A stretch of 64,000 nucleotides of DNA from the NCBI RefSeq assembly GCF_011045215.1, contig NZ_CP049201.1. One strand, given 5' to 3'. A program made the position numbers and the translations under genes. Below the pieces are notes generated by a model that saw nothing but the letters and a program-made list of their open reading frames with translations, was not told the DNA's origin and did not search any database. Origin of the DNA: Escherichia coli. Lineage in GTDB: Bacteria > Pseudomonadota > Gammaproteobacteria > Enterobacterales > Enterobacteriaceae. Below, piece after piece: positions 62,536 to 63,434 of this stretch (position 1 is its first letter; each line of letters opens with the position of its first letter).

Positions 62536-63079
62536 GCATCACTGGAAAGTAGAAAAACAGCCTGAGTGGTACGTGAAAGCTGTCAGAAAAACTATCGCAG
62601 CGTTGCCGGGGGGGTACGCTGAAGCTGCTGACTGGCTGGATGTAACAGAGAACGCATTATTTAACCGCCTTCGTGCCGATGGCGATCAGATTTTCCCGCT
62701 GGGATGGGCAATGATTTTGCAACGTGCTGGTGGAACTCACTTCATTGCTGACGCTGTGGCGCAGTCTGCAAATGGCGTCTTTGTGTCTCTTCCTGACGTC
62801 GAGGATGTGGACAACGCCGATATTAACCAGCGCCTGCTGGAAGTCATTGAACAGATCGGCAGTTATTCAAAACAGATTCGTTCAGCAATTGAAGACGGTG
62901 TAGTGGAACCGCATGAGAAGACAGCAATTAACGACGAGCTGTACCTCTCAATTTCGAAGCTGCAGGAGCATGCAGCACTGGTCTACAAAATTTTTTGCAT
63001 TTCAGAAAGTAATGACGCCCGCGAGTGTGCAGCTCCGGGCGCCGTGGCGTGTCGTGACTGTGGAGAAACTAACGCATGA
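62528..63079 (+). CDS. Phage regulatory protein (CII/YdaT-like), 183 aa
   Basis: Position immediately after cro; C-terminal Cys-rich tail ([17 protein letters not shown]); family assignment from memory, tentative. Confidence 0.55.
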
Positions 63080-63414
63080 ACAGTTTAACAACACACTACC
63101 GTCGCTCGCAACTGATTGCGCTTCCTGTACCGGGTGGAAAAGCGAAGGTGGAGTATTGCTATGCAGTAAATGTACCAGGTGACAGGGAAATTGTAACCCA
63201 CAGCTTTGCAGAGTGGGCTGTGGGTGATTTCAACCGGCAGAAGGAGACAGTCCTTTGCGACAAGTTAACCGCTGGTTCAAAGATCACTACGGAGTGCCCG
63301 TCAGAGTCATTCGTTGGGAGCCGGAAACACAACGTGTTATCTACCTCCGCGAAGGCTATGAGCATGAGTGCTTCAGCCCGCTCGAACAGTTTCGTCGTAA
63401 ATTCAGGGAAATAG
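63076..63414 (+). CDS. Hypothetical phage protein; reading frame downstream of about nt 63250 doubtful
   Basis: ATGA overlap with the upstream gene; first ~60 aa look protein-like, the remainder is Ser-rich and overlaps a better-looking ORF in another frame. Confidence 0.3.
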
Positions 63415-63434
63415 AGGTCGGTCATGAGCACTAA
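63255..63434 (+). CDS. Small phage protein (59 aa) from a TTG start, or the C-terminal part of a frameshifted gene
   Basis: SD AAGGAG 8 nt before TTG; product [59 protein letters not shown]; stop overlaps the next gene's ATG region. Confidence 0.35.

What the first reader, a model, noticed from the sequence alone, without database searches (positions are those of the whole stretch)
63076..63434. Frame ambiguity after the CII/YdaT-like gene: either two overlapping small genes or one frameshifted gene
The ORF starting at 63076 is protein-like for about 60 codons and then becomes Ser-rich low-complexity. From 63255 another frame, with a perfect AAGGAG SD and TTG start, encodes a well-formed 59-aa sequence. 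A single-nucleotide indel near 63250 would fuse the two into one ~120-aa protein. Alternatives are a small overlapping gene or a programmed frameshift.
Basis: seen in the sequence. Interest (0 to 1): 0.35.

Follow-up and report, generated by a model that had tools for sequence, protein, structure and literature searches.

The report
ymfM overlaps a nested DUF4222 gene
This stretch holds two separate small prophage genes in different reading frames, not one broken gene, and it matters because the published cell-division inhibitor 'ymfM' was cloned and deleted as a piece of DNA that contains both.

Summary
ORF A (63076-63414, 112 aa) and ORF B (63255-63434, 59 aa, TTG start, AAGGAG 8 nt upstream) overlap by 160 nt in different frames. 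The region is the early-right operon of an e14/SfII-like lambdoid prophage: cro, ymfL (CII-like), A, B, then an O-like replication gene.

ORF A is the K-12 gene ymfM, published as the SfiC cell-division inhibitor. ORF B is a full-length member of Pfam DUF4222.

This is not a frameshifted gene.
- The same ungapped arrangement occurs in about 2,000 complete E. coli genomes and in diverged phages.
- B's start position is conserved as ATG, GTG or TTG behind a purine-rich tract.
- In Yersinia-type phages the two genes are separate, joined only by an ATGA stop/start overlap.
- Rare fused proteins all have different junctions.

Selection switches frame at about 63250. Upstream, variation follows frame A. 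In the overlap, 9 of 10 polymorphisms are silent in B and change the amino acid in A.

The conserved units are therefore an A module of about 58 aa and B. A's Ser-rich tail is an unconstrained read-through.

RefSeq annotates one gene or the other, never both. The published ymfM experiments do not separate them.

The parts
62528..63079 (+). ymfL, a CII-like regulator and the upstream neighbour. Its TGA stop overlaps the ATG of ORF A (ATGA).
   Evidence: Pfam Phage_CP76 E = 1.5e-13. NCBIfam NF041471 phage_reg_YmfL E = 9e-50. Annotated ymfL in identical genomes.
63076..63414 (+). ORF A, which is ymfM as annotated in E. coli K-12 (b1148, 'cell division inhibitor YmfM'), 112 aa.
   Evidence: It differs from K-12 YmfM at 3 residues, all in the tail. 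It matches phrog_1170 over 1-112. It has no Pfam or NCBIfam hit.
63076..63254 (+). The conserved N-terminal module of ORF A (about 58-59 codons). This is the part of A that is under protein-level selection.
   Evidence: All 20 invariant alignment columns fall within residues 1-50. Polymorphisms split 3:5:11 over A codon positions 1:2:3. Against diverged homologs the split is, for example, 10:8:23. The module occurs with unrelated tails (P0054, P0056, P0070). It matches the 63-aa family phrog_20047 over its full length. AlphaFold pLDDT is 65-78 over residues 11-60.
63241..63246 (+). Shine-Dalgarno sequence AAGGAG for ORF B, 8 nt upstream of the TTG.
   Evidence: An equivalent purine-rich tract precedes the homologous start codon in every lineage examined.
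63255..63434 (+). ORF B, a stand-alone DUF4222 protein of 59 aa with a TTG start. Its stop lies 6 nt downstream of the O-like gene's start codon (11-nt overlap).
   Evidence: Pfam PF13973 E = 8.6e-19, profile positions 3-52 of 53. It matches phrog_1343. PGAP annotates it as WP_001250269.1 in 100%-identical genomes. Its homologs are overwhelmingly 59-70 aa. The start is ATG, GTG or TTG at the same position. Substitutions against Klebsiella phage split 6:3:26 by codon position. The model has pLDDT 84 and is an SH3/Tudor-like barrel.
63255..63414 (+). The overlap. The C-terminal 53 codons of ORF A are read one base downstream of the B frame. This tail is Ser-rich and unconstrained, and it stops 9 nt before the O-like gene's ATG.
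   Evidence: 9 of 10 polymorphic sites are B position 3, which is A position 2 and so always non-synonymous in A. No column is invariant and only T65 is nearly invariant in A residues 51-112. pLDDT is below 50 for residues 67-112. The three differences from K-12 YmfM are all here, while B is identical.
63424..63661 (+). The 5' part of the O-like replication-initiator gene, the downstream neighbour. In this window it is cut off after about 79 codons by a deletion.
   Evidence: In L001 the gene is 942 nt and is annotated as a helix-turn-helix protein. BLAST of the window against L001 shows collinearity ending at 63661 and resuming about 1 kb further on in L001.

Best explanation
Two independently initiated small genes of a lambdoid early-right operon overlap here.

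Gene A (ymfM) starts at the ATG that overlaps the ymfL stop. It encodes a conserved module of about 58 aa. In this lineage it has no stop at the A/B junction. Ribosomes therefore carry on for 53 more codons, out of frame, across gene B, and terminate 9 nt before the O-like gene's ATG.

Gene B (DUF4222) initiates at its own AAGGAG/TTG site inside A. It encodes a 59-aa SH3/Tudor-like beta-barrel and ends just inside the O-like gene.

Shown here:
- There are two genes and two start sites.
- Selection acts on frame A upstream of about 63250 and on frame B downstream of it.
- The A tail evolves as fast as silent sites.
- The arrangement is not an assembly error.

Inferred:
- The chain ymfL, A, B, O is translationally coupled through its overlapping stops and starts.
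- The A tail is best seen as a tolerated stop-loss extension. It may help deliver ribosomes to the O-like start.
- The active part of the published division inhibitor is more likely the conserved A module (about 60%) than B (about 25%) or both (about 15%). That split is a judgement, not a result.
For: **Identity of the region**
- K-12 annotates ymfM at the homologous place.
- PGAP annotates only DUF4222 there in 100%-identical genomes and in all 40 rows sampled across 2,014 matching records.

**B is a real, stand-alone family member**
- Pfam DUF4222, E = 8.6e-19.
- 273 homologs, nearly all 59-70 aa.
- tblastn matches in 111 phage records, down to 33% identity.

**B has its own start**
- ATG, GTG or TTG sits at the same alignment position behind a purine-rich tract in all lineages.

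**The two genes are separable**
- In Yersinia-type phages the A-like gene ends in a TGA that overlaps B's ATG.
- A modules and B modules recombine at the junction (P0071, P0075, P0089).
- The A module occurs with other tails or next to a deleted B.

**The frame under selection switches**
- Among 51 distinct close relatives, A-only sites vary 3:5:11 by A codon position.
- In the overlap, 9 of 10 variable sites are B position 3.
- B position 3 sites vary at 9/52. Third positions of the flanking genes vary at 11/59, 6/25 and 4/22, so frame A adds no extra constraint.

**Structure**
- The B model is confident (pLDDT 84).
- The A model is ordered only in residues ~13-66, and the tail has pLDDT below 50.

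**Published experiments do not separate the frames**
- Ansari et al. (bioRxiv 10.1101/2020.11.19.390815) expressed the annotated ymfM ORF from pBAD24 and compared a deletion mutant.
- By my coordinates that ORF carries B's ribosome-binding site, its start and its codons 1-53.
Against: - No direct evidence of translation exists for either product. I found no ribosome-profiling or proteomic paper mentioning ymfM.
- The A frame is open across the B core in 10 of 11 lineage clusters where A reads into B. It is open in about half of the clusters where it does not.
- The two invariant Val codons whose GTR forms would create a stop in A use GTY in 131 of 132 cases, against 18 of 41 at a safe Val. By parsimony the transition:transversion counts are 13:2 at those sites and 43:33 at safe sites, Fisher p = 0.04.
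- These two points hint at some selection to keep A open. That would mean the tail, or at least translation through it, is not entirely irrelevant.
- The A module evolves quickly (about 60-75% identity where B keeps 88%). Its model is only moderately confident, so its status as a folded functional protein is less secure than B's.
- PGAP does not call A at all.
Confidence: 0.82

Rival explanations
1. The region is one gene of about 118 aa (A module fused to DUF4222) that a 1-nt indel near 63228-63254 has split, either as a sequencing or assembly error or as a recent pseudogenising mutation.
For: The B frame is open back to 63228, so a single indel would fuse the two. A few fused proteins of 102-152 aa exist in assemblies (P0030, P0052, P0059, P0065, P0090).
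Against: - The identical ungapped arrangement is present in 2,004 of 5,426 complete E. coli genomes and in phages down to about 75% DNA identity.
- The fused proteins are singletons or tiny clusters, mostly from raw-read assemblies. Each has a different junction.
- DUF4222 proteins are stand-alone and 59-70 aa family-wide.
- Yersinia-type phages put a stop and a start codon between the two genes.
Confidence: 0.02
2. A programmed -1 ribosomal frameshift makes an A-module/DUF4222 fusion protein in addition to, or instead of, the separate products.
For: The frame relation is right, since B lies at -1 relative to A. Phages do use programmed frameshifts. The A frame reads across the B start.
Against: - No X XXY YYZ heptamer lies in 63228-63257, the only stretch where a shift could give an open product (read by eye).
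- The junction sequence is not conserved between lineages, whereas B's start codon and ribosome-binding tract are.
- The local RNA fold is no more stable than shuffles, z = -0.88.
- There is no Rfam match.
- Yersinia-type loci have stops in both frames at the junction.
Confidence: 0.03
3. Only DUF4222 is a gene, as PGAP annotates. The 179 nt between ymfL and B are non-coding, and ORF A is a spurious long ORF.
For: PGAP leaves 63080-63254 unannotated in every genome sampled. A has no Pfam or NCBIfam family. Its structure model is weak, with no fold match.
Against: - The A module is conserved as protein across E. coli, Klebsiella, Pantoea and other hosts, with 20 invariant columns.
- Its variation is concentrated at third codon positions.
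- It always begins with an ATG or GTG overlapping the ymfL stop.
- It forms its own PHROG families.
- Expression of the ymfM ORF gives a strong phenotype, although that alone does not prove A is the agent.
Confidence: 0.07
4. This is a true dual-coding overlap of the Rz/Rz1 type. The whole 112-aa YmfM, including the Ser-rich tail, is functional, and both frames are selected in the overlap.
For: - A homologs keep a length of 112-117 aa down to 46% identity.
- The A frame is open across B in 10 of 11 read-through clusters.
- Stop-creating Val codons are avoided, p = 0.04.
- The full-length ORF is what was shown to cause filamentation.
Against: - In the overlap, 9 of 10 polymorphisms change the A protein and none of those nine changes B.
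- B's silent sites are not slowed compared with flanking genes.
- No A column beyond residue 50 is invariant.
- The tail is predicted to be disordered.
- Few stops are expected in that frame anyway: 0.5-0.9, with P(open) 0.25-1.0 per lineage.
- The A module exists naturally with quite different tails.
Confidence: 0.08

Closest known systems
ymfM (b1148) of the E. coli K-12 e14 prophage, reported as the SOS-inducible division inhibitor SfiC (Ansari et al., bioRxiv 10.1101/2020.11.19.390815)
   Same: ORF A is the same gene: 109 of 112 residues are identical, and the neighbours ymfL and the O-like gene are the same. The nested B ORF is 100% identical in K-12.
   Different: The literature and EcoCyc treat the locus as one 112-aa protein. 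Here the conserved unit is only the first ~58 aa, and the rest overlaps a second conserved gene that the papers I could search do not mention. Function was not tested here.
Pfam DUF4222 (PF13973) / phrog_1343, small phage proteins of unknown function
   Same: ORF B is a full-length member of typical size. It sits directly upstream of, and overlapping, an O-like, Rha, Ant or Ash gene, as in other phages.
Rz/Rz1 of phage lambda, one gene embedded out of frame inside another (from general knowledge, not tested here)
   Same: A small gene with its own start lies inside a longer gene in another frame of the same strand.
   Different: In Rz/Rz1 both products are required and both frames are constrained. 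Here only the embedded gene is constrained in the overlap. B also runs 20 nt past the end of A rather than being fully embedded.
ATGA-type stop/start overlaps (translational coupling) in phage operons, as in the Yersinia-type homologs
   Same: The gene order and relative frames are the same. ymfL/A overlap as ATGA here, and A/B and B/O overlap as ATGA in phage YeP2 and its relatives.
   Different: In this lineage the stop of A at the A/B junction is absent, so a 4-nt overlap has become a 160-nt overlap.

Membership tests
Pfam DUF4222 (PF13973) | The sequence scores above the family's curated gathering threshold over most of the profile. | tested here: met
   67.3 bits against a cut-off of 27, E = 8.6e-19, protein residues 2-53 on profile positions 3-52 of 53.
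Pfam DUF4222 (PF13973) | A stand-alone small protein with its own translation start. | tested here: met
   Homologs are nearly all 59-70 aa. The start is ATG, GTG or TTG at the same position behind a purine-rich tract in all lineages. AAGGAG lies 8 nt upstream here.
YmfM / SfiC of prophage e14 | Sequence identity and synteny with K-12 b1148. | tested here: met
   109 of 112 residues are identical and the ORF is flanked by ymfL and the O-like gene. It matches phrog_1170 over 1-112.
YmfM / SfiC of prophage e14 | Expression blocks Z-ring formation and causes filamentation. | not testable with these tools
   This is reported for the K-12 ORF. That construct also carries the nested DUF4222 start and its codons 1-53, so the active product is unresolved.
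Programmed -1 ribosomal frameshift site | A slippery heptamer X XXY YYZ in the upstream frame, within the stretch where both frames are open. | tested here: not met
   No such heptamer is present in 63228-63257, GAT TTC AAC CGG CAG AAG GAG ACA GTC CTT TGC. The junction sequence is not conserved between lineages.
Programmed -1 ribosomal frameshift site | A stimulatory downstream RNA structure. | tested here: not met
   The fold of 63205-63300 has z = -0.88 against shuffles. There is no Rfam match at E <= 1.
Dual-coding embedded gene pair (Rz/Rz1 type) | A second gene with its own start nested out of frame in a longer gene. | tested here: met
   B starts at codon 60 of A, in the -1 frame.
Dual-coding embedded gene pair (Rz/Rz1 type) | Both reading frames are under purifying selection in the overlap. 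| tested here: not met
   9 of 10 polymorphisms are silent in B and non-synonymous in A. No column is invariant in A residues 51-112.
Frameshifted pseudogene or assembly error | Intact single-frame orthologs predominate elsewhere. | tested here: not met
   The two-frame form is found in 2,004 complete genomes. Fused forms are rare and have differing junctions.

The most novel reading that the evidence does not exclude
The agent of the SfiC/'YmfM' division block is not the annotated 112-aa protein. It would be the nested DUF4222 barrel protein, alone or together with the 58-aa A module. That would give the first function for the DUF4222 family, which sits next to the replication-initiator gene in many enterobacterial prophages. 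My evidence does not exclude this, because every published ymfM construct and deletion affects both reading frames.
Probability: 0.3. Interest if true: 0.6.

Novelty: new member of a known kind. Interest (0 to 1): 0.4.

Why it matters
ymfM is one of the few prophage genes with a published cellular phenotype. It is cited as a second SOS-inducible inhibitor of E. coli division, and it is used as a tool to make filamentous cells.

The DNA called ymfM carries two conserved coding units. Half of the annotated protein is an unconstrained out-of-frame tail.

Curated K-12 annotation lists only ymfM. NCBI's pipeline lists only the DUF4222 gene, including in K-12 derivatives. Genome comparisons, knock-out collections and expression constructs therefore silently refer to different products.

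Three single-base changes would separate the candidates and identify the real inhibitor. Each is silent in one frame.

Beyond that, this is an ordinary case of gene overlap in a tightly packed phage operon.

Tried and rejected
- **Frameshift or assembly error:** rejected on population and comparative data.
- **Programmed frameshift:** no slippery site, no conserved junction, no significant RNA structure (z = -0.88) and no Rfam hit.
- **Hairpin at the B start:** a small hairpin pairs GAAGGA with UCCUUU across B's ribosome-binding site and start in the minimum-energy fold. It is neither significant nor conserved in other lineages, so I dropped it.
- **Antisense RNA or internal promoter/terminator (lambda oop-like):** the consensus scan found no more sites than shuffles.
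- **The 90-aa minus-strand ORF (63159-63431):** treated as spurious. It lies antisense to the two conserved genes, I saw no homolog or annotation for it, and I did not pursue it.
- **Selection keeping the A frame open over B:**
  - A first simulation with general codon usage suggested P = 0.01-0.17.
  - With the gene's own or family codon usage, and restricted to the core, P is 0.25-1.0.
  - The remaining signal is weak: Fisher p = 0.04 on parsimony counts, and 10 of 11 against roughly 6 of 12 clusters open.
  - Four read-through clusters were chosen through full-length A hits and are therefore biased.
  - I report this as suggestive only.
- **Fold search with the A model:** nothing meaningful, best E = 0.59, as expected from a mean pLDDT of 54.
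- **First scan of viral contigs with the DUF4222 alignment:** it returned only near-identical loci. Divergent queries were needed.
- **Primer table of the ymfM paper:** not held. The exact 3' end of the published clone is therefore inferred from 'the open reading frame was cloned'.

Full report
**What is in the sequence.**
- ORF A runs from ATG 63076 to TAG 63412-63414 (112 aa). Its ATG overlaps the stop of the preceding gene as ATGA.
- ORF B runs from TTG 63255 to TAA 63432-63434 (59 aa). AAGGAG lies at 63241-63246, 8 nt upstream of the TTG.
- B lies in the -1 frame relative to A, and the two share 160 nt.
- The B frame is open upstream only to 63228, so a single-base indel in 63228-63254 would indeed produce a fusion of about 118 aa.
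- The last 53 residues of A contain 12 serines.

**Where we are.** The surrounding genes are as follows.
- A CI/LexA-like repressor on the minus strand (61485-62177).
- A cro-like gene (62275-62535).
- ymfL, a CII-like regulator (62528-63079; Pfam Phage_CP76, NCBIfam phage_reg_YmfL).
- ORFs A and B.
- An O-like replication gene starting at 63424.

This is the early-right operon of an e14/SfII-like lambdoid prophage. In E. coli K-12 the homologous ORF A is ymfM (b1148), annotated 'cell division inhibitor YmfM'. The window's A differs from it at three residues, all in the tail, and B is identical.

**Two annotations of the same DNA.** In genomes 100% identical to the window, NCBI's pipeline annotates only ORF B, as 'DUF4222 domain-containing protein', and leaves 63080-63254 empty. 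The 359-bp A+B segment occurs at 90-100% identity in 2,004 of 5,426 complete E. coli genomes. In all 40 records sampled evenly down the ranking, K-12 derivatives included, only DUF4222 is annotated. The curated K-12 record and some phage records annotate only the 112-aa ymfM. No record I saw annotates both.

**ORF B is a real, independently started gene.**
- It matches Pfam DUF4222 across the whole profile (E = 8.6e-19) and phrog_1343.
- A profile search found 273 homologs, almost all 59-70 aa stand-alone proteins from Enterobacterales.
- tblastn found it in 111 phage records, down to 33% identity in an Elizabethkingia phage.
- Across lineages the start codon at the same alignment position is ATG (Klebsiella phages, Eeyore, mEp390, Pantoea AH07), GTG (SfV, ST64B and others) or TTG (here). 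A purine-rich tract precedes it each time.
- A start position that is conserved while its codon varies marks an initiation site, not the interior of a fused gene.
- Against a Klebsiella phage at about 75% DNA identity, B keeps 88% protein identity. Substitutions split 6:3:26 over codon positions 1:2:3.

**The first half of ORF A is also a real coding unit.**
- Homologs of A share 20 invariant columns, all within residues 1-50.
- Among 51 distinct close relatives, the 19 variable sites in 63079-63254 split 3:5:11 over A's codon positions.
- Against diverged homologs the split is, for example, 10:8:23.
- The module always starts at an ATG or GTG overlapping the ymfL stop.
- It matches a 63-aa PHROG family over that family's full length.

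**The frame under selection switches at about 63250.**
- In the overlap (63258-63411), 9 of the 10 variable sites are third positions of B. Those are second positions of A, so each change alters the A protein and none alters B.
- B's third positions vary at 9 of 52 sites. Third positions of the neighbouring non-overlapping stretches vary at 11/59, 6/25 and 4/22. Frame A therefore imposes no measurable extra constraint.
- No column of A beyond residue 50 is invariant.
- AlphaFold models residues ~13-66 of A with moderate confidence and residues 67-112 with pLDDT below 50.

**The two genes are separable in nature.**
- In Yersinia-type phages (YeP2 and about 30 related contigs) a 53-aa A-like gene ends with a TGA that overlaps B's ATG. 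B in turn ends with a TGA overlapping the O gene's ATG. The relative frames are the same, but each overlap is only 4 nt.
- Different A modules are found joined to the e14-type tail (P0071, P0075, P0089). The e14-type A module is found with unrelated tails where the downstream DNA differs (P0054, P0056). It also occurs with a shortened tail where the B core has been deleted in frame (P0070, locus L138).
- The recombination boundary therefore coincides with the start of B.

**Why it is not a frameshifted gene or a programmed frameshift.**
- The arrangement is ungapped in about two thousand finished genomes.
- The few fused proteins in the 5.8-billion-protein collection are singletons or tiny clusters, mostly from raw-read assemblies. 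Each has a different junction.
- The only stretch where a shift could give an open product (63228-63257) has no X XXY YYZ heptamer and is not conserved between lineages.
- The local RNA fold is no better than shuffles (z = -0.88), and Rfam finds nothing.

**Does anything keep the A frame open across B?** This is the one loose end.
- The frame is open over the B core in 10 of 11 lineage clusters in which an upstream gene reads into B. The exception is a locus where B itself is frameshifted. It is open in roughly half of the 12 clusters where the upstream gene stops first.
- The two invariant Val codons followed by Ile, where GTA or GTG would create a stop in A, use GTC or GTT in 131 of 132 distinct sequences. 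A Val followed by Pro uses GTA or GTG in 23 of 41.
- Parsimony counts of transitions to transversions are 13:2 at the at-risk sites and 43:33 at safe four-fold sites (Fisher p = 0.04).
- Against this, only 0.5-0.9 stops are expected in that frame given B's protein sequence. The probability of an open frame per lineage is 0.25-1.0 under a synonymous-codon shuffle.
- The lineages are not independent, and four read-through clusters were picked via full-length A hits.
- I therefore call the signal suggestive only.
- If it is real, the simplest reading is not a functional tail. A stops 9 nt before the O-like gene's ATG, so ribosomes translating A would be delivered to that start. That is coupling by inference, not shown here.

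**What the products might do.**
- The B model is confident (pLDDT 84): a five-stranded SH3/Tudor-like barrel with a short helix.
- The A model has no meaningful structural match.
- B invariably sits immediately upstream of, and overlapping, an O-like, Rha, Ant or Ash gene.

**The link to SfiC.** Ansari et al. (bioRxiv 10.1101/2020.11.19.390815) cloned 'the open reading frame' of ymfM into pBAD24 and obtained uniform filamentation and loss of Z rings. A ymfM deletion shortened SOS filaments in a sulA background.
- By my coordinates, the ymfM ORF contains B's ribosome-binding site, its start and codons 1-53 of 59, which is the whole Pfam domain. A deletion of ymfM removes nearly all of B.
- The earlier screen clones contained both genes complete.
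- The paper does not discuss a nested frame. The five papers that mention DUF4222 at all do so once each, with the term in neither title nor abstract, and I did not open them.
- The active product is therefore unresolved.
- I lean to the A module at about 60%. It is fast-evolving, as small phage division inhibitors tend to be. It was also placed behind the vector's strong start, whereas B depended on a TTG. This is a judgement.

**Verdict.** The finding is real and is resolved in favour of two overlapping genes. One of them carries an unconstrained out-of-frame tail. As biology it is an ordinary consequence of tight packing and stop-codon loss in a phage operon. Its interest lies in the annotation conflict over a named, phenotypically characterised E. 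coli gene, and in the cheap experiment that would settle which product is the inhibitor.

Noticed in passing
window 63424-64000: The O-like replication gene is cut off after about 79 codons. Compared with an otherwise 99%-identical prophage (L001), collinearity ends at 63661 and resumes about 1 kb further on, inside the PerC-family gene. The adenine-methyltransferase gene is also absent between two ATGA gene boundaries (junction at about 63821-63824). A LexA_DNA_bind-type gene starts at 63821. The prophage therefore looks replication-defective, much as e14 is in K-12.
   Followed up: partly
L010 1358-2515, L011 1352-2188, L142 1052-2203, L140 1184-2206, L012 1484-2167: In phages ST64B, SfV, PhiR63_1, Stx1_699 and Hafnia yong2, the deposited annotation has one long 'Rha / antirepressor / transcriptional regulator / Ash' protein. 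Its N-terminal part is the out-of-frame reading across the DUF4222 gene and, in three of them, the A module as well. These starts are probably over-extended and hide the DUF4222 gene. Records 2H10 and 1720a-02 annotate the shorter versions.
   Followed up: partly
L138 1501-1737 (Entomohabitans teleogrylli contig): An in-frame deletion of about 39 codons removes the DUF4222 core, leaving only its first and last few codons. It shortens the A protein to 78 aa. This is a natural case of the A module kept without B.
   Followed up: partly
window 61300-62500 against L001: The repressor/cro immunity region of the window does not match L001, although ymfL, A and B are 99-100% identical. This is the usual lambdoid mosaicism, with a boundary near 62503.
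   Followed up: no
L131 around 1201-1400: In this viral contig the DUF4222 gene itself shifts into the A frame near its 3' end (...CMQPLRGSKRNLSGWMYEH...). This is either a real indel variant or an assembly error.
   Followed up: no
window 63159-63431, minus strand: A 90-aa ORF is open on the opposite strand across the same region, so three of six frames are open here. I treated it as spurious. I did not test it beyond noting that it has no annotation or homolog.
   Followed up: no
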